Assembly (NCBI GenBank): GCA_041660925.1
Contig: JBAZVI010000002.1
Coordinates: forward strand, 19,906 to 83,905
From: Elusimicrobiota bacterium
Lineage (GTDB): Bacteria; Elusimicrobiota; Elusimicrobia; UBA1565
Reading direction: 5' to 3'
Length of the DNA stretch: 64,000 nt
Under the pieces are notes generated by a model that was not told the origin of the DNA, did no database searches, and worked only from the letters and a program-made list of their open reading frames with translations. The position numbers and the translations under genes are program-made. Of the stretch, positions 2,908 to 40,847 are shown piece by piece. Position 1 is the stretch's first letter; each line of letters begins with the position of its first letter.

Positions 2908-3603
2908 TCAGCCGGCGACGACGGAGTCGCGGATCATCCCCGCGAGCTTCTTAGGGTCGGGGATGAAGAAGCGGCCCTCGTGGGTGTCCACGATCTGGGC
3001 GCTGCGCAGCATCGCGAGCGCGCGGGAGAGCGGCTCGCGCGTCGTCCCGACGAGGTCGGCGAGCTCCTGGTGCGTATAGCGCTCCTGGAGCAGGACGCCG
3101 CGGCGCTGCGGGCGGCCGCAGTGGGCGGCGAGGTCGTGGAGCGTCTTTGAGACGCGGCCGAGGATGTTGCGGAAGAGCAGGCTCTCGATCTCGTCGTCGG
3201 CGTGGCGCAGCCGCTCCGCGACCGTGCGCAGGAGGGTGAGGGTCACGTTGGGGTCGGAGAGGAGGAAGCGCTCGAAGTCCCGGTTGCGGATGATGAGCAG
3301 GCGCGAGGGGATGACGGCCTGGGCGGAGGCGGAACGGGGCGCATGGAGCAGCAGGCCCATCTCGCCGAAGATGTCCCCCGCCGAGAGGTAGGCGAAGGTC
3401 TTGCGCTTGCGCGCCGGGGACTGGCAGTAGATCTTCACCCGTCCCGAGACGACGAAGAAGATGTGGTTGGCGGTCTCGGACTTCGAGAACACGAGCTGGC
3501 CGGCGGCGAAGTCGCGCGTCTTCGCGAGCTTGAGGATGCGCTGAAGCTGCGTCTTGGGCAGGGTGCGCAGGAGGGCGAAGCGATGGAGCTGGGAAAGGGT
3601 CAT
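2908..3603 (-). CDS. Crp/Fnr-family transcriptional regulator (cNMP-binding domain + C-terminal HTH)
   Basis: 231 aa; cNMP-binding-like FFVVSGRVKIY...GDIFGEMGLL followed by HTH-like QELADLVGTTREPLSRAL. Confidence 0.8.
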   Translation of the reverse strand: MTLSQLHRFALLRTLPKTQLQRILKLAKTRDFAAGQLVFSKSETANHIFFVVSGRVKIYCQSPARKRKTFAYLSAGDIFGEMGLLLHAPRSASAQAVIPSRLLIIRNRDFERFLLSDPNVTLTLLRTVAERLRHADDEIESLLFRNILGRVSKTLHDLAAHCGRPQRRGVLLQERYTHQELADLVGTTREPLSRALAMLRSAQIVDTHEGRFFIPDPKKLAGMIRDSVVAG

Positions 3604-33681: not shown

Positions 33682-34551
33682 ATGAACTTCCAGGATCTCG
33701 TGATGAACCTCCAGCGCTTCTGGGCGCGCCAGGGCTGCCTCATCGTCCAGCCCTACGACCTCGAGAAGGGCGCCGGCACCTTCAACCCGGCGACCTTCTT
33801 CGGCGTCCTGGGTCCCAAGCCGACGCGGGCCGCCTACGTCGAGCCCTCGCGCCGCCCCGGCGACGGGCGCTACGGGGAGAACCCGAACCGCCTCGGCAAG
33901 TACTTCCAGTTCCAGGTCATCCTGAAGCCCGCGCCGGCCGACGTCCAGGCCGTCTACCTGCGCTCGCTGAAGGCCATCGGCCTCGACGCGCGCCGCCACG
34001 ACATCCGCTGGATCGAGGACGACTGGGAGTCCCCCACCCTCGGCGCCGCCGGCGTGGGCTGGGAGGTCTGGCTCGACGGCATGGAAGTCACCCAGTTCAC
34101 CTATTTCCAGCAGATGGGCGGCCAGACGCTGAACCCGGTCTCCGTGGAGATCACCTACGGGCTCGAGCGCCTCGCGATGTACTCCCAGAAGAAGGACCGG
34201 GTCTACGACCTCGATTACAACGACGACACGACCTACGGAGACCTCTTCCTCCGCCAGGAGCGGGAGTTCTCCCCCTACCACTTCGAGCACTCCGACCCGG
34301 AGATGCTGCGCCGGCACTTCGACGACTACGAGAAGGAAGGCGCCCGGCTCTGCGAGAAGGAGCTTCCGCTGGCCGCCTACGACTGCGTGCTCAAATGCTC
34401 GCACCTCTTCAACCTGCTCGACGCGCGCGGGGCCATCTCGGTCTCCGAGCGCCAGGGCTACATCTCCCGCGTGCGCGGCGCGGCCAAGCGCGTCATCGGG
34501 GCGTATCTCGGCGAGCCGAAGAAGGACGCCGTCGCCGGAGGCGCGCGATGA
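33682..34551 (+). CDS. glyQ: glycine--tRNA ligase alpha subunit
   Basis: 289 aa; highly conserved GlyQ sequence ([19 protein letters not shown]..., FQFQVILKP). Confidence 0.9.
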
Positions 34552-36647
34552 AGACCGCCCTGCTCGAGATCGGCGTCGAGACCCTGCCGGCGCGCTTCAT
34601 CCGTCCGACCCTGCGCCAGATGGAGGCGCTGGCCGTCGAGATGCTCAAGGCCGAGCGCCTCGAGCACGGCGCCGTCCGCGCCGTCGGCTCTCCGATGCGC
34701 CTGGCGCTCCTCATCTCGGGCGTCGCCGAGAAGTCCTCCGCCGACGAGCGCGAGGCCTCCGGGCCGCCCGCGCGCCTGCTCAAGGACGAGAAGGGCGCGT
34801 ACACGCCGCAGGCGCTGGGCTTCGCCCGGGCGCAGGGCGTCCGGGTCGAGGACCTCTCGACGAAGGAGACGCCCAAGGGACTCGTCCTGCTCGCCCGCAA
34901 GACCCTTCCCGGCGAGGGCGCGCTGCAGGTCCTGCGCCGCGTCTTCCCGGCGCTCATCGGGCGTCTCGAGTTCCCGAAGACCCTCGAGTGGGAGGAGTCG
35001 CGCTTCCGCTTCGGCCGACCGATCCGCAACCTCGTCGCCCTCTACGGGAAGAAGGTCGTGCCCTTCACGCTGGCCGGCGTGCGCGCGGGCAGCCGCACGC
35101 GCGGACTCGCCGCGCTCGGGCAGAAGCCCGTGCCCGTCGCCGACCCCGACAAGTACGTGAAGACCCTGCGCGACCGCTGCGTGCTCGTCGACCAGGACGA
35201 GCGCATGAAGGCCCTGCGCGAGGGGCTCGAAGCCGCCGCGAAGCGCTCCGGCGGCCGCCTCGACGAGGACGACGAGCTCCTCGAGCAGCTGAACTTCCTC
35301 TGCGAGCATCCCGTCGCCGTGCTCGCCGGCTTCGACAAGGCCTATCTCGAGCTGCCGCAGGCCCTGCTCACGACCGTGCTCAAGACCCAGCTCAAGTTCT
35401 TCCCGCTCGTCGGCAAGGACGGCCGGCTCCTCCCCGAGTTCATCGGGGTCCGCGACGGCGTCAGCGAGGGCCAGAAGGAGGTGCAGTACGGCTTCGAGCG
35501 CGTGCTCACCGCGCGCTACAGCGACGCGCGCTTCTTCTTCGGGCGCGACCGCGAGACGACGCTGTCCGCCAAGCGCGCGAAGCTGAAGCTCGTCGGCTTC
35601 CAGAAGGGCCTGGGCACGATGCTCGACAAGAGCGACCGCACCCTCGCCCTGACGCGCTGGCTCTGCGAGCGCCTGCGCCAGGAGAAGCATCTCGACGAGC
35701 GTTCGGCCGAGGCCATCGCCGACCTCTGCCACTGCGACCTCGTCAGCGACGTGGTCAAGGAGTTCCCCGAGCTGCAGGGGACGATGGGCGGCGTCTACGC
35801 CCGCCACGAGGACCTCGGCGAGCGCGTCGCGCTCGGTCTCGAGGAGTTCTACTTCCCCGTGGGAGCGAAGGGCCGGCTCCCCTCGCACCTGGAGGCCGTG
35901 CTCGCCTCGCTCGCCGGGAAAGTCGACGCCGTCGCCGCGATGTTCTCCGCCGGGATGAAGCCGACGGGCAGCGAGGACCCCTTCGCGCTGCGCCGGCTCG
36001 GCAACGGCGCCGTGCGCATCCTCCTCGAGAAGCAGGTCCGCGTCCCGCTGCGCGAGATCCTCGAGGCGGCTCTTGCCGTCGTCGAGAAGCAGGAGCTTCC
36101 CGCCTCCCGGCTCAAGGACGGGAAGGCCGAGACCCTGCGCGAGCTCGAGGAGTTCTTCTGGCAGCGGGCCGAGTCGCTCTTCCTCGACCAGGGCTTCCGG
36201 CAGGACGAGCTCAAGGCGGTCAAAGACGGCGGCCTCGACGACTTCCCCCGCACCTACAAACGCCTCGCCGCCCTGCACGCCCTGCGCGCGGAAGCCGAGT
36301 TCTCCGCGCTCGCCCAGGCCTTCAAGCGCGCCTCGCACATCGTGAAGGGCGACGACGGGGCTTCGCTCCAGGACGTCGACAAGGCCCTGTTCTCCGAGGA
36401 GGCCGAGCGCGGGCTCTACGACGCGCTCGCCCGCGTCGAGGGCGAGGTCCGCAGCAAGACCGCCGAGGAGGAGTACGAGGCGGCCCTGCGGGCGCTGGTG
36501 CGCATCAAGCCGGACCTCGACCTCTTCTTCGAGAAGGTCCTCGTCATGGCCCAGGACCCGAAGGTGAAGGCGAACCGCCTCTCGCTCGTCGGCCGGCTCG
36601 TGCGGCTCTTCCGCTCGGTCGCCGACGTCTCCCAGATCCAGAACTAA
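34548..36647 (+). CDS. glyS: glycine--tRNA ligase beta subunit
   Basis: Trimmed from ORF 34395..36647 to ATG at 34548 ([17 protein letters not shown]...), overlapping glyQ stop as ATGA; GlyS-like throughout. Confidence 0.9.
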
Positions 36648-36652
36648 GCGAA

Positions 36653-36702
36653 GCGTGAAACAGCGTGGAGGGGCCTTTCGGCCCCGCCCCGCTGTTTCAC
36701 GC
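36653..36702. terminator. nested inverted repeat between convergent glyS and toxin-antitoxin genes (candidate bidirectional terminator)
   Basis: 13-bp outer inverted repeat gcgtgaaacagcg/cgctgtttcacgc enclosing inner hairpin ggggcc-tttc-ggcccc; no clean U-tract on either strand. Confidence 0.45.
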
Positions 36703-36707
36703 TCTGT

Positions 36708-36869
36708 TCAGTGAAGACGGCGACGATAGGTCCGTTCGTTGCGGCGTAGGACTCGCAGGACCGTCACGATGCGCTTGCCGTCGTCGATGGAGTAGAGGAT
36801 CCGCCAGATGCATCCTTCGCCCGTCGGGTGAAATACCCCCGGGCCGAGACCGCCTTCTCCGGACGCTTC
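36708..36869 (-). pseudogene. RelE/ParE-family toxin C-terminal remnant (N-terminal half absent; probable degraded toxin)
   Basis: Frame ending at stop 36708-36710 reads ...GVFHPTGEGCIWRILYSIDDGKRIVTVLRVLRRNERTYRRRLH, resembling RelE/ParE C-termini; upstream in this frame is only the off-frame translation of the antitoxin gene. Confidence 0.4.
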
Positions 36870-37039
36870 AGGTGACTCTTCCACGCTTTCTGTGCGGCGC
36901 GGAGGTCCGCCAGCTCCTGGTGGTAGGTCTCCTCCACGGCTTTCCGCAGGAGATCCGCCATCGGGCAGCGCATCTCGACGGCGAGATGCTTGAGCCCGCT
37001 GTGCAGTTCTTCCGGCAGATAGATGGTCGTGCGTACCAT
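36764..37039 (-). CDS. ribbon-helix-helix (CopG/ParD-like) antitoxin
   Basis: ATG at 37037-37039 preceded by GGAGGG; MVRTTIYLPEELHSGLKHLAVEMRCPMADLLRKAVEETY is a typical RHH N-terminal domain; 91 aa, translated manually codon by codon. Confidence 0.65.
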   Translation of the reverse strand: MVRTTIYLPEELHSGLKHLAVEMRCPMADLLRKAVEETYHQELADLRAAQKAWKSHLKRPEKAVSARGYFTRRAKDASGGSSTPSTTASAS

Positions 37040-37348
37040 GGGGATACCCTCCATGGATAGTATGGGGTATAGACATACATATGTCAATATGTCCCAAAGC
37101 CATCTCCCCACCCCGATCATCCCCCCTCCTGCGGTCTTCAAATAGGATACGTACGGGAACGCAATAAGTTCCATTTGAGATATGAATATTTGGCGGACGC
37201 CTTCGGCCCTGCCCCGCGAATCTGGAACTTTCCCACGCCTCGGCGCGTACTCCCTATATGGATGCAGCGGCGTCAGATACAGCGGCGTCAGGCACCGCAA
37301 CTTTCGGAACTTATTGGGGGTGCGCGGGGATAAGCGCGGGCCTGTGCT

Positions 37349-37648
37349 CGCTAGGAGTCCGTCCGAGTAATAGCGTATTCCCCGGAGGCCCTCAGCCTGA
37401 GCCGTGCGCAAGGCGTGACGAGCGAGCATAGCTTCGCTATGTGAGCGAGGAGCAACGCGGCGCACGGCCGGGATGGGGCCTCCCGCTCCTCCTCGTATCC
37501 TCGTCGGAGGAGCGGGTCGCGCGCTATTGGGCTCCTCCTTCGTTGCTCGTCGCTTACAGGCCTTCAGGCCTGCGCGCTCCTCGCGCCTCGGCTCGCTCCA
37601 ACAGCGCGCGACCGGAGAACACGCTATTACTCGGACGGACTCCTAGCG
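37349..37648. repeat. 300-bp element bounded by 28-bp perfect terminal inverted repeats (candidate MITE or structured RNA)
   Basis: cgctaggagtccgtccgagtaatagcgt at 37349-37376 is the exact reverse complement of acgctattactcggacggactcctagcg at 37621-37648; interior holds further hairpins; no credible ORF. Confidence 0.45.
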
Positions 37649-37906
37649 GCTGCGTGAGCGCAAGTCTCGAAAGTTGCAAAAGTTGACGTCTGACCCCATC
37701 AGGATCACCTCAGTGAAAGTTCCATATCTCCCCTTCCTGCGAGTTCGCACTATCGGACTCCTCATTGCGTGCGATCGCGGCACTATCAGGGATGGGGTGC
37801 CGCCGAAGGGGCAGGGGAAGGGGGCTCTTTCCTCCCCGCGTACGGTCCTGACGCTATGGGTCGGGGTGTCGGTGAAGAGGGCGATGCGGGGGCGGGAGGT
37901 GGAGGG

Positions 37907-39535
37907 TCAGCGGTACTTGCCGCGGGCGACGGGCATGCGCCGGCCGATGCCGAAGGCCTTTCCGGTGATCTTCACTCCGGGAGCGGCCTGGCGGCGCTTG
38001 TACTCGGTGCGGTCGATGCGGTCGAGCACGTCGAGGACGAGGGCCTTGCGGTGTCCCCGGCGGACGATGGCGTCGAGCGTGCGGCCCTCCTCGACGTAGG
38101 CGCGCATGATGTCGTCGAGGACCTCGTAGTCGGGGAGGTCGTCCTGGTCCTTCTGTCCCGGCTTGAGCTCGGCCGAGGGGGCCTTGCGGATGGAGCTCTC
38201 GGGGATGCGCTCCCCTCCGCGGTTGATGAAGCGCGCGAGCTCGTAGACCGTGGTCTTGGGCACGTCCGAGATGAGGGAGAGCCCCCCCGCCATGTCGCCG
38301 TAGAGCGTGCAGTAGCCCACCGAGCACTCCGACTTGTTCCCCGTCGAGAGCAGCAGCGCCCCGCGCTGGTTGCTCAGCGCCATGAGGAGCATCCCGCGCA
38401 GGCGCGCCTGGACGTTCTGCTCGACGAGCGAGCCCGGCGCGGCGGTCTCTCCGAGCGCCCCGAGCGCGGCCTGGTGGATGGGGTTGATGGGGAGCATCAC
38501 CGTCTCGACGCCGAGGTTGCGCGCGAGGGCGAGCGCGTCGTCGACGCTCCCTTTGCTGGAGTACTTCGAGGGCATGAGGACGCCGAGCACGTTGCCCGGG
38601 CCGAGGGCGTCGGCCGCGAGCGTGCAGACGAGAGCCGAGTCGATGCCGCCGCTCAAACCCACGACGGCGCGGGTGAAGCCGCACTTGCGCGCGTAGTCGC
38701 GCAGGCCGAGCAGCAGGGCTTTGTAGATCTCCTCGGTCTCTCCCTCCGCGCGCAGGGCGATGGCCGGCGCGGCGGCGTCCGGGTCGACGAGGACGAGGTC
38801 CTCCCCGAAGCCGCGGGCGAGCGCGACGAGGCGTCCCTTCGCGTCGAGCGCCATGCTCGCGCCGTCGAAGACGAGCTCGTCGTTGCCGCCGACGAGGTTG
38901 CAGTAGAGGAACGGGAGGCGGTGGCGCCGGGCCTGGCTGCGCAGCATCTTCAGGCGGAAGCCGCGCTTGCCGCGGTAGTAGGGCGAGGCGGAGAGGTTGA
39001 GGAGGAGGTCCGCCTTGGCCCGGGCGAGCGCCGCGACCGGGTCGCGGTCATAGAGCGGCTTCTCCCAGAAGGAGCGGTCGTTCCAGGCGTCCTCGCAGAC
39101 GGTGACGCCGAGGCGGCGGCCTTCGAAGGGGATGGGTTCGTTGCGCGGGGAGGGCTCGAAGTAGCGGCCCTCGTCGAAGACGTCGTAGGTCGGGATGAGG
39201 GTCTTGAAGCGCCGGGCGGCGACCTTCCCGCGGTGCAGGAGGGCGGCGGCGTTGAAGAGGGCCTTGCCGCGGCCGCGGTTGGGCTCGGCGTAGCCTACGA
39301 GCATCGCGGTCCGGCGGGAGGCGCGGGCGAGCTCCCCGAGGGCCTTGAGGTTCGCGCGCACGAAGTCGGGCTGGTAGAGCAGGTCCCCCGAGGGGTAGCC
39401 GGGGATGCACAGCTCGGGGAAGAGCACGAGTCCGGCCCCGCGGCGCTCGGCCTCGGCGTAGGCGTGCAGGATGCGGTCGCGGTTCCCTCGGATGTCTCCG
39501 ACGGTGGTGTCGAGCTGGGCGAGCGCGACCTTCAT
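37907..39535 (-). CDS. nadE: glutamine-dependent NAD+ synthetase (N-terminal CN-hydrolase domain + C-terminal synthetase domain)
   Basis: 542 aa; nitrilase-like N-terminus (MKVALAQLDTTVGDI..., LFPELCIPGYP) and NAD synthetase PP-loop GLSGGIDS. Confidence 0.9.
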   Translation of the reverse strand: MKVALAQLDTTVGDIRGNRDRILHAYAEAERRGAGLVLFPELCIPGYPSGDLLYQPDFVRANLKALGELARASRRTAMLVGYAEPNRGRGKALFNAAALLHRGKVAARRFKTLIPTYDVFDEGRYFEPSPRNEPIPFEGRRLGVTVCEDAWNDRSFWEKPLYDRDPVAALARAKADLLLNLSASPYYRGKRGFRLKMLRSQARRHRLPFLYCNLVGGNDELVFDGASMALDAKGRLVALARGFGEDLVLVDPDAAAPAIALRAEGETEEIYKALLLGLRDYARKCGFTRAVVGLSGGIDSALVCTLAADALGPGNVLGVLMPSKYSSKGSVDDALALARNLGVETVMLPINPIHQAALGALGETAAPGSLVEQNVQARLRGMLLMALSNQRGALLLSTGNKSECSVGYCTLYGDMAGGLSLISDVPKTTVYELARFINRGGERIPESSIRKAPSAELKPGQKDQDDLPDYEVLDDIMRAYVEEGRTLDAIVRRGHRKALVLDVLDRIDRTEYKRRQAAPGVKITGKAFGIGRRMPVARGKYR

Positions 39536-40633: not shown

Positions 40634-40847
40634 TCCCCTCACCCCCGCCCCCTCGCCGGCACCCCGACGCTGATAGTGCCGCAGACCGGACGCTTGCGGA
40701 ACCTGTAGTCCGGTCGCCCGCGTGGCGGTAGAGGGGAGGTAGTTTAACGGCGGGGCGTTCCGACGGGTCCCCGGGGGCCCTTGGGCCCACCTTGCGCAAG
40801 GCCTCCCGACCCTTCATCCCGGGCGCATCGCCGGCTATCCTGAGGAC

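What the first reader, a model, noticed from the sequence alone, without database searches (positions are those of the whole stretch)
36708..37039. Toxin-antitoxin locus with intact RHH antitoxin but only a C-terminal RelE/ParE toxin fragment
The antitoxin gene (RBS GGAGGG, RHH N-terminus MVRTTIYLPEEL...) reads cleanly for 91 codons. The RelE/ParE-like signature (IWRILYSIDDGKRIVTVLRVLRR) appears only in a different frame over the last about 50 codons before the stop at 36708. Upstream in that frame is just the off-frame image of the antitoxin gene, so there is no room for a toxin N-terminal half. Either the toxin is decayed while the antitoxin is retained (an orphan antitoxin), or there is a frameshift or unusual overlapping arrangement.
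Basis: partly seen in the sequence, partly recalled or inferred. Interest (0 to 1): 0.6.

Follow-up and report, generated by a model that had tools for sequence, protein, structure and literature searches.

The report
Eroded RelBE toxin-antitoxin locus, orphan antitoxin
This is an ordinary decaying toxin-antitoxin gene pair in an uncultured Elusimicrobiota bacterium: one 158-base deletion removed most of the toxin gene and left the antitoxin gene and its promoter intact.

Summary
On the minus strand, 37039-36764 is a 91-codon ORF with a ribbon-helix-helix (RHH) N-terminus. A RelE/ParE-like C-terminal fragment lies in another frame and ends at 36708.

Related loci in Elusimicrobia MAGs show the ancestral layout. 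They have a 77-aa RHH antitoxin ending ...RAKHA*, overlapped (ATGCATAA) by an 85-aa RelE-type toxin.

In the window, homology runs to 36808 (ATGCAT, toxin codons 1-2) and resumes at 36807, in toxin codon 55. Exactly 158 nt are missing. This single out-of-frame deletion removed toxin codons 3-54 (strand 1, both helices and strand 2 of the fold). It also removed the antitoxin stop codon, so the antitoxin gained a 14-aa nonsense tail.

The same junction, with 100% identical DNA, occurs in three other assemblies. It is therefore not a sequencing indel, and no frameshift can restore a toxin.

The promoter (TTGACA-17-CATACT), a conserved operator-like palindrome and the RBS are intact. The antitoxin is therefore probably still expressed as an orphan autorepressor.

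Toxin-first erosion of chromosomal toxin-antitoxin loci is well documented. Three of the other 15 assessable loci fetched lost the toxin in different ways. Interest is low.

The parts
37059..37087 (-). Sigma-70-type promoter of the cassette: TTGACA (37087-37082), 17-nt spacer, CATACT (37064-37059).
   Evidence: It is the only promoter-like site in 36500-38000, matching 10 of 12 positions, against 0.3 expected in shuffles. The -35 hexamer is conserved in 15 of 18 aligned loci.
37072..37085 (-). Operator-like palindrome GACATA-TG-TATGTC that overlaps the -35 box. It is the presumed binding site of the RHH antitoxin dimer.
   Evidence: The motif aTTGACATAtrTATGT is near-invariant across 18 loci whose coding DNA is only 62-76% identical. 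Binding was not tested.
37047..37052 (-). Ribosome-binding site GGAGGG, 7 nt upstream of the ATG.
   Evidence: Read directly from the sequence. AGGAGG-like sites sit at the same place in homologous loci.
36809..37039 (-). Native part of the RHH antitoxin gene, codons 1-77 (MVRTT...YFTRRAKDA).
   Evidence: Pfam RHH_3 scores 24.8 bits, above its cutoff. It is 80-90% identical to 77-aa homologues that stop exactly after residue 77. DNA is colinear with intact loci down to 36808.
36764..36808 (-). Non-native 14-codon extension of the antitoxin ORF (SGGSSTPSTTASAS) plus a new stop. It is toxin remnant DNA read out of frame.
   Evidence: The tail is absent from the 77/78-aa homologues. P0027 (= L015) has a different non-native tail. 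It follows from the deletion of the native TAA.
36808..36813 (-). Remnant of the toxin start, ATGCAT (Met-His), which in intact loci overlaps the antitoxin stop as ATGCATAA.
   Evidence: Compared with L001, L005, L008 and others. From this ATG the reading frame now gives a 38-aa nonsense peptide (36813..36697) with no Pfam hit.
36807..36808 (-). Deletion junction. 158 nt present in intact loci are missing between these two bases.
   Evidence: Gapped alignments to L008, L010, L012 and L014 match ref 1-232 to 37039-36808 and ref 391-471 to 36807-36727. The identical junction occurs in L006/L035, L036 and L037.
36708..36807 (-). 3' remnant of the RelE-type toxin gene: the last base of codon 55, then W56 to the end (WRILYSIDDGKRIVTVLRVLRRNERTYRRRLH) and the stop. 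It corresponds to strands beta3 and beta4 and the C-terminal tail only.
   Evidence: Family profile E 1.1e-8, positions 59-85 of 85. tblastn E 2-5e-5. The DNA is 69-71% identical to intact toxins. Secondary-structure elements come from the model of homologue P0043.
36643..36712 (.). Strong GC-rich hairpin between the toxin remnant stop (36708) and the convergent glyS stop (36647). It is a probable bidirectional terminator without a T-tract.
   Evidence: Inverted repeat I2. The RNA fold is -50.2 kcal/mol with z -9.4. The consensus terminator scan does not call it because there is no T-run.

Best explanation
The locus is an eroded relBE-type (RHH antitoxin plus RelE/ParE-superfamily toxin) type II toxin-antitoxin cassette. 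It sits in a small lower-GC islet between glyS and nadE of an Elusimicrobiota MAG.

**Shown.** The ancestral cassette encoded a 77-aa RHH antitoxin and an 85-87-aa RelE-like toxin whose ATG overlapped the antitoxin stop. A single 158-nt (3n+2) deletion joined toxin codon 2 to the last base of codon 55. It removed strand beta1, helices alpha1 and alpha2, and strand beta2 of the toxin. It also put the remaining 32 codons out of frame with the toxin ATG, and it deleted the antitoxin stop codon, so the antitoxin ORF now runs 14 codons into the remnant.

**Inferred.**

- The toxin is dead. No start codon or RBS serves the remnant, and two beta-strands cannot form the RelE fold.
- The antitoxin is still transcribed from its intact sigma-70-type promoter and translated from its intact RBS.
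- The antitoxin dimerises through the RHH domain and represses its own promoter at the conserved palindrome that overlaps the -35 box.
- It has no cognate toxin to neutralise. It is most likely a recent, selectively tolerated intermediate of the usual two-step decay: toxin first, antitoxin later.
For: - **Antitoxin homologues.** They are 77-78 aa and end at the residue that corresponds to window residue 77.
- **Intact loci.** Twelve fetched loci carry an overlapping 85-88-aa toxin. These toxins score 36-43 bits on PF05016 over the full profile. A model of one of them (pLDDT 90.7) matches M. tuberculosis RelE1 and RelE2 (TM 0.80-0.84), T. thermophilus RelE and E. coli RelE.
- **Deletion mapping.** Four independent pairwise alignments map the deletion to exactly 158 nt.
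- **Remnant.** It matches only profile positions 59-85 of 85 (E 1.1e-8). No other toxin-like sequence exists in the 64-kb window. It keeps every invariant or near-invariant residue of that segment, which is consistent with a recent event.
- **Junction in other assemblies.** An identical junction with 100% identical flanks is present in JGI 3300014208, ENA ERZ27249449 and Logan SRR18595301 assemblies.
- **Sister allele.** Cluster-mate P0042 is a near-identical antitoxin that stops natively after ...RRAKDA. This implies a sister strain without this junction.
- **Expression signals.** The promoter, palindrome and RBS are intact.
- **Other erosions.** Independent toxin losses of a different kind occur in L007, L001/L009 and L015.
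- **Literature.** Toxin truncation with antitoxin retention is the commonest route of chromosomal toxin-antitoxin erosion (PMC13617665). Orphan antitoxins are abundant (PMC7192599).
Against: - Expression and DNA binding of the 91-aa antitoxin were not tested, and the 14-aa tail could destabilise it.
- A second conserved element between -35 and -10 (consensus tATG.tA) has diverged in the window to TATACCC. The operator or promoter may therefore already be degenerating.
- The true pre-deletion sequence of this lineage could not be fetched. Breakpoints are therefore inferred from relatives whose antitoxin DNA is 66-76% identical.
- Only 64 kb of the genome was searched for a second cognate toxin.
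Confidence: 0.9

Rival explanations
1. The orphan antitoxin is not a neutral remnant. It is kept by selection, either as an anti-addiction or immunity factor that neutralises related RelE toxins arriving on mobile elements or phages, or as a repurposed RHH transcription factor.
For: The ORF, promoter, palindrome and RBS are all intact while the toxin is destroyed. Antitoxin ORFs are also retained in three other loci with independently lost toxins. Anti-addiction roles are proposed in the literature (PMC7192599; PMC13617665).
Against: The same pattern is expected just after any toxin-inactivating mutation, because the antitoxin can only be lost afterwards. The remnant looks young. The antitoxin acquired an unselected 14-aa tail. 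Part of the promoter spacer has diverged. No partner toxin lies in the window.
Confidence: 0.15
2. The missing toxin half is an assembly or sequencing artefact: a collapsed region or an indel in a genome whose toxin is really intact.
For: A cluster-mate antitoxin with a native stop exists in another sample.
Against: The gap is 158 nt, not a homopolymer indel. No repeats flank it that could cause a collapse. The same junction with 100% identical DNA occurs in four assemblies from different pipelines: the window (NCBI MAG, 556-kb contig), JGI, ENA and Logan.
Confidence: 0.03
3. An unusual but functional arrangement: a programmed -1 frameshift that fuses the antitoxin to the toxin C-terminus, or a split or overlapping toxin gene.
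For: The toxin-remnant frame is open through the whole antitoxin gene (131-codon ORF 37103..36708). A -1 shift from the antitoxin frame would enter it.
Against: I saw no X XXY YYZ slippery heptamer in frame when I inspected the sequence near the junction. A fusion would still lack toxin residues 3-55, including beta1, alpha1, alpha2 and beta2. No homologue has such an architecture; intact loci all have two separate overlapping genes. Nothing else in the window encodes the missing half.
Confidence: 0.02

Closest known systems
Mycobacterium tuberculosis RelBE1 (Rv1247c/Rv1246c, PDB 9g12) and RelBE2 (Rv2865/Rv2866, PDB 3g5o)
   Same: They are the best sequence and fold matches of the intact homologous toxin: phmmer E 9.5e-7 and 4e-4; Foldseek TM 0.80-0.84 at 29-31% identity. 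The operon order is the same, with the antitoxin first and the toxin second in a small two-gene operon.
   Different: The window copy lacks toxin residues 3-55. The antitoxin here is an RHH (CopG/RHH_3) protein. It scores below the cutoffs of the NCBIfam RelB antitoxin models: 21.5 and 16.4 bits against cutoffs of 50.
E. coli RelBE (PDB 4fxe, 4v7j/4v7k), a ribosome-dependent mRNA endonuclease with an RHH antitoxin
   Same: The toxin fold is the same (TM 0.77-0.80). It also has an RHH DNA-binding antitoxin that autoregulates the operon (established knowledge of RelBE).
   Different: Sequence identity is only about 14%. The family here scores below the TIGR02385 RelE_StbE cutoff: 21-23 bits against 27.9. 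Catalytic equivalence was not tested.
Eroded chromosomal type II toxin-antitoxin loci and orphan antitoxins (Photorhabdus, PMC13617665; Klebsiella, PMC7192599)
   Same: A toxin ORF truncated by deletion while the antitoxin persists. The locus is a tiny toxin-antitoxin-only islet between core genes. Related genomes show independent erosions.
   Different: None of substance. The host is an uncultured Elusimicrobiota lineage. In this case the same deletion also removed the antitoxin stop codon.
ParDE (ParE gyrase poisons; Pfam PF05016 is named after them)
   Same: The Pfam family is shared, and ParE structures appear lower in the fold search (6x0a, 5cw7, 7r5a, 8c24).
   Different: All the best sequence and structure matches are RelE-type rather than ParE-type.

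Membership tests
RelE/ParE toxin superfamily (Pfam PF05016) | Complete toxin domain (beta1-alpha1-alpha2-beta2-beta3-beta4) encoded in one frame. | tested here: not met
   Only Pfam profile positions 65-87 of 89 are present (20 bits, below the 23-bit cutoff). For the family profile, only positions 59-85 of 85 are present. 158 nt are missing. The window copy is a pseudogene fragment, not a member protein.
RelE/ParE toxin superfamily (Pfam PF05016) | The fragment descends from a family member, with significant and colinear homology. | tested here: met
   Family profile E 1.1e-8. tblastn E 2-5e-5. The DNA is 69-71% identical and colinear just downstream of the antitoxin. Intact orthologues score 36-43 bits on PF05016.
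RelE/ParE toxin superfamily (Pfam PF05016) | RelE-type fold of the intact relatives. | tested here: met
   AlphaFold model of P0043 has pLDDT 90.7. Foldseek against the PDB gives RelE1, RelE2, T. thermophilus RelE, aRelE and E. coli RelE at TM 0.75-0.84.
RelE/ParE toxin superfamily (Pfam PF05016) | Toxic activity (ribosome-dependent mRNA cleavage) neutralised by the cognate antitoxin. | not testable with these tools
   This needs a kill-rescue assay with an intact homologue.
NCBIfam TIGR02385 RelE_StbE subfamily | Score above the curated cutoff (27.9 bits). | tested here: not met
   Intact homologues score 21.3-22.7 bits. They are RelE-like but not members of this curated subfamily.
RHH (CopG/RHH_3) type II antitoxin | N-terminal ribbon-helix-helix DNA-binding domain. 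| tested here: met
   PF12651 RHH_3 scores 24.8 bits against a 21.6 cutoff, over residues 2-37. All family-invariant residues are present.
RHH (CopG/RHH_3) type II antitoxin | C-terminal toxin-binding region of native length that ends at the native stop. | tested here: not met
   Residues 38-77 are present and conserved, but the native stop is deleted and 14 foreign residues are appended.
RHH (CopG/RHH_3) type II antitoxin | Autoregulation through an operator at its own promoter. | tested here: inconclusive
   A conserved palindrome overlaps the -35 box in 18 loci. Binding was not tested.
NCBIfam RelB antitoxin equivalogs (NF046040, NF048017) | Score above the curated cutoff (50 bits). | tested here: not met
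   The scores are 21.5 and 16.4 bits.
Orphan antitoxin / eroded toxin-antitoxin locus | Antitoxin ORF with expression signals, adjacent toxin non-functional, and no other cognate toxin. | tested here: inconclusive
   The first two features are met. Absence of another cognate toxin is shown only for the 64-kb window; the rest of the genome was not available.

The most novel reading that the evidence does not exclude
The tail-extended RHH antitoxin is maintained by selection after toxin loss. It would act as an immunity or anti-addiction factor against related RelE toxins on mobile elements or phages that circulate in Elusimicrobiota populations, or as a domesticated regulator. Repeated independent toxin losses with antitoxin retention in this family (four of 16 assessable loci, counting the window) would then reflect recurrent domestication rather than neutral decay.
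Probability: 0.12. Interest if true: 0.35.

Novelty: new member of a known kind. Interest (0 to 1): 0.12.

Why it matters
It matters little beyond annotation.

- **Annotation.** The 91-aa ORF is deposited as MFA6028772.1, 'ribbon-helix-helix domain-containing protein'. It should be described as a relB-like RHH antitoxin whose last 14 residues are an artefact of a deletion. 36708-36813 should be flagged as a relE-type toxin pseudogene.
- **Example value.** It is a clean, base-resolved case of the toxin-first route of chromosomal toxin-antitoxin erosion in a poorly studied, uncultured phylum. A likely non-deleted sister allele exists and could date the event.

Tried and rejected
- **Frameshift or sequencing indel.** Rejected: the gap is 158 nt and four assemblies share the junction.
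- **My artificial in-frame antitoxin-toxin fusion.** It gave a longer ParE_toxin match (profile 44-87), which briefly suggested that the antitoxin C-terminus was toxin sequence. Rejected: homologous antitoxins align to residue 77 and stop there.
- **The extended tblastn hit.** Toxin residues 31-77 aligned to 36887-36741. Its first half is the off-frame image of conserved antitoxin DNA, so that part is chance.
- **MAFFT multiple DNA alignment.** It failed to open the long gap. I replaced it with pairwise affine-gap alignments.
- **Fetching the non-deleted sister allele.** A toxin search built from the window remnant plus the L005 N-terminus found nothing closer than 72% identity overall, or 74% to the remnant. 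That search also missed the known 43-aa L005 fragment, so the negative is not informative.
- **Synteny.** No fetched locus has glyS or nadE flanks.
- **Viral contigs.** No relatives were found.
- **Rfam, tRNA and Pfam scans of 36500-38000 and its spurious ORFs.** Only one sub-threshold Rfam match turned up, in the hairpin region (MIR839, 22.5 bits against a gathering score of 200). There were no tRNAs and no Pfam hits.
- **Microhomology at the breakpoints.** It cannot be assessed without the true ancestor.

Full report
**1. What is in the sequence**

On the minus strand, an ATG at 37039 opens a 91-codon ORF (MVRTTIYLPEELHSGLKHLAVEMRCPMADLLRKAVEE...) that stops at 36764. GGAGGG lies 7 nt upstream of the ATG. 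The ORF passes Pfam's threshold for the ribbon-helix-helix family RHH_3, at 24.8 bits against 21.6.

A second minus-strand frame ends at 36708 with IWRILYSIDDGKRIVTVLRVLRRNERTYRRRLH. Pfam ParE_toxin aligns this only to profile positions 65-87 of 89, at 20 bits, which is below the cutoff. A profile built from 37 intact homologous toxins hits it at E 1.1e-8 in a six-frame translation of the entire 64-kb window. It covers only profile positions 59-85 of 85, and no other segment of the window matches the profile. The third frame gives nothing.

**2. What the intact locus looks like**

A protein search with the 91-aa ORF returned 39 relatives, almost all 77-78 aa. The named ones are Elusimicrobia or Elusimicrobiota MAG proteins. 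In the alignment they all end ...YFAKRAKHA*, at the residue that corresponds to window residue 77. The window's last 14 residues (SGGSSTPSTTASAS) have no counterpart.

I fetched 28 genomic loci and translated what follows the antitoxin. Twelve loci (L008, L010-L014, L016-L021) carry an 85-88-aa ORF whose ATG overlaps the antitoxin stop (ATGCATAA). An example is MHNVQLASSAVRDLDKICEPDLSRLQSHILSLEHNPRPQGSLKLKDAIHRVRVGDWRILYAIDDKQQTVIILRVLRRSERTYKGI.

These toxins have the following properties:

- They cover the whole PF05016 profile at 36-43 bits.
- Their sources name them RelE/ParE or RelE/StbE.
- They fall just below the TIGR02385 RelE_StbE cutoff.
- Their best solved relatives are M. tuberculosis RelE1 (9g12) and RelE2 (3g5o).

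An AlphaFold model of P0043 (pLDDT 90.7) has beta1 at 3-6, alpha1 at 8-15, alpha2 at 21-31, beta2 at 48-53, beta3 at 56-63 and beta4 at 68-76. It superposes on RelE structures from M. tuberculosis, T. thermophilus, P. horikoshii and E. coli at TM 0.75-0.84. ParE structures rank lower. The family is thus a RelE-like toxin paired with an RHH antitoxin.

**3. The lesion**

blastn of the intact loci against the window ends at 36808 for most of them. Affine-gap pairwise alignments to L008, L010, L012 and L014 all give the same picture. Reference positions 1-232 match window 37039-36808, and positions 391-471 match window 36807-36727. The single gap is 158 nt.

At codon level, the window keeps ATG CAT (toxin Met1-His2, 36813-36808). 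It then joins directly to C-TGG-CGG-ATC-CTC-TAC, which is the last base of Asp55 followed by W56-R-I-L-Y. The deletion therefore removes codons 3-54 plus two bases (3n+2). This has three consequences:

- The toxin loses beta1, alpha1, alpha2 and beta2.
- The remaining 32 codons are out of frame with the toxin ATG. From that ATG the reading frame yields a 38-aa nonsense peptide.
- The antitoxin's TAA, which shared the ATGCATAA overlap, is destroyed. The antitoxin ORF therefore reads 14 extra codons through the remnant in the wrong frame.

No frameshift correction can restore a toxin, because the sequence for 52 residues is absent.

**4. Real or artefact?**

The exact junction string occurs in a JGI metagenome contig (Ga0172379_10048036, sample 3300014208) that is 100% identical to window 34782-38569. 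The identical 91-aa protein is also deposited from a 556-kb NCBI MAG contig (MFA6028772.1). The window probably comes from that contig, though I infer this only from the identical protein. The protein is also found on an ENA contig (ERZ27249449) and a Logan contig (SRR18595301), both 100% identical to the window. Four assemblies from different pipelines agree, and no repeats flank the junction. An artefact is very unlikely.

The same 90% protein cluster holds P0042, from another Logan contig. It is a near-identical antitoxin with one substitution in 77 residues, and it stops natively after ...RRAKDA. A sister strain therefore evidently lacks this junction. I could not fetch that contig.

This, together with the retention of every conserved residue in the remnant (W, R, I, L, Y, D, V, RVLRR, E, Y), suggests a recent deletion. 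That is an inference.

**5. Expression signals and likely present-day function**

The only sigma-70-like promoter in 36500-38000 is TTGACA-17-CATACT at 37087-37059 on the minus strand, matching 10 of 12 positions. Across 18 loci whose coding DNA is only 62-76% identical, the stretch aTTGACATAtrTATGT is almost invariant. It contains the palindrome (G)ACATA-nn-TATGT(C), which overlaps the -35 box. This is the classical arrangement for an RHH antitoxin that represses its own operon (established knowledge of RelBE, CopG and similar systems). The window retains it at 37085-37072.

A second conserved element between -35 and -10 (tATG.tA) has diverged in the window to TATACCC. It has also diverged in L007, another toxin-less locus. 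That is a weak hint of relaxed constraint.

My best reading is that the antitoxin is still made, binds its operator and has nothing to neutralise. Whether the 14-aa tail affects its stability is unknown. A strong hairpin (-50.2 kcal/mol, z -9.4) at 36643-36712 separates the remnant from the convergent glyS gene.

**6. Context**

The cassette, together with about 800 bp of non-coding DNA upstream, forms a stretch of 49-66% GC. It lies between glyS (34395-36647, plus strand) and nadE (39535-37907, minus strand), which are about 70% GC. None of the other loci shares these flanks. L001, for example, sits next to ribF-truB. The cassette is therefore a small horizontally acquired islet, as is usual for toxin-antitoxin modules.

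Among the 16 assessable loci (12 intact, three eroded, plus the window), four have lost the toxin in four different ways:

- The window has an internal 158-nt deletion.
- L007 has a 3' truncation after about 30 codons.
- L001/L009 has a stop after 18 codons, with the rest missing.
- L015 has no toxin, and its antitoxin tail is replaced.

These are documented.

**7. Comparison with what is known**

Toxin pseudogenisation by truncation with antitoxin retention is described as the frequent two-step route of chromosomal toxin-antitoxin erosion in Photorhabdus (PMC13617665). Orphan antitoxins are abundant in Klebsiella, where anti-addiction is offered as a possible role (PMC7192599). Nothing here departs from that picture.

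On membership, the antitoxin is an RHH_3 protein but does not reach the NCBIfam RelB equivalog cutoffs. The toxin remnant descends from a PF05016/RelE-fold toxin but is not itself a member protein.

**8. Verdict**

The alternatives of a frameshift, an unusual overlap or an artefact are rejected.

This is a new member of a known kind and of low interest (0.12). The only mildly interesting open reading is that the orphan antitoxin is kept by selection as an immunity or anti-addiction factor (probability about 0.12).

Noticed in passing
window 37349-37648: A roughly 300-bp element bounded by 28-nt perfect terminal inverted repeats (CGCTAGGAGTCCGTCCGAGTAATAGCGT; the arms extend to 54 nt at 81% complementarity). 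As single-stranded DNA it folds into one long hairpin (-113.8 kcal/mol, z -10.3). It is a single copy in the window, with no Rfam or Pfam hit. It looks like a MITE-like or palindromic element, about 260 bp upstream of the antitoxin promoter.
   Followed up: partly
window 36650-37900: A lower-GC stretch (49-66%, against about 70% in the flanking glyS and nadE). It comprises the toxin-antitoxin cassette plus about 800 bp without any credible ORF, and it looks like a small acquired islet between two housekeeping genes.
   Followed up: partly
window 37261-37290: Two tandem copies of a 15-nt unit, GATGCAGCGGCGTCA and GATACAGCGGCGTCA, in the non-coding region upstream of the cassette.
   Followed up: no
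window 36643-36712: A very stable hairpin (33-nt arms, -50.2 kcal/mol, z -9.4) between the convergent glyS and toxin-remnant stops. It has no T-tract, so the consensus terminator scan does not call it.
   Followed up: partly
L007 about 3230-3330; L001/L009 about 2105-2165; L015 about 2850-2930: Three other Elusimicrobia loci of the same family have lost the toxin independently and differently. L007 has a 3' truncation that runs on into the downstream sequence. L001/L009 has a stop after 18 codons with the rest absent. L015 has no toxin and its antitoxin C-terminus is replaced.
   Followed up: partly
protein P0042 (Logan contig of 4,027 bp, not fetched): A near-identical antitoxin with one substitution in 77 residues that ends at the native stop after ...RRAKDA. 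A sister strain therefore lacks the deletion junction, and this is probably the pre-deletion allele.
   Followed up: partly
window 37061-37071, and the same place in L007: The second conserved promoter-spacer element (consensus tATG.tA in 18 loci) has diverged in the window (TATACCC) and in toxin-less L007. This may be early decay of the operator or promoter after toxin loss. The sample is too small to judge.
   Followed up: no
window 37767-37817 and 40642-40693: A short dispersed repeat of 52 bp at 83% identity. It appeared as a secondary blastn hit of contig L006 against the window.
   Followed up: no
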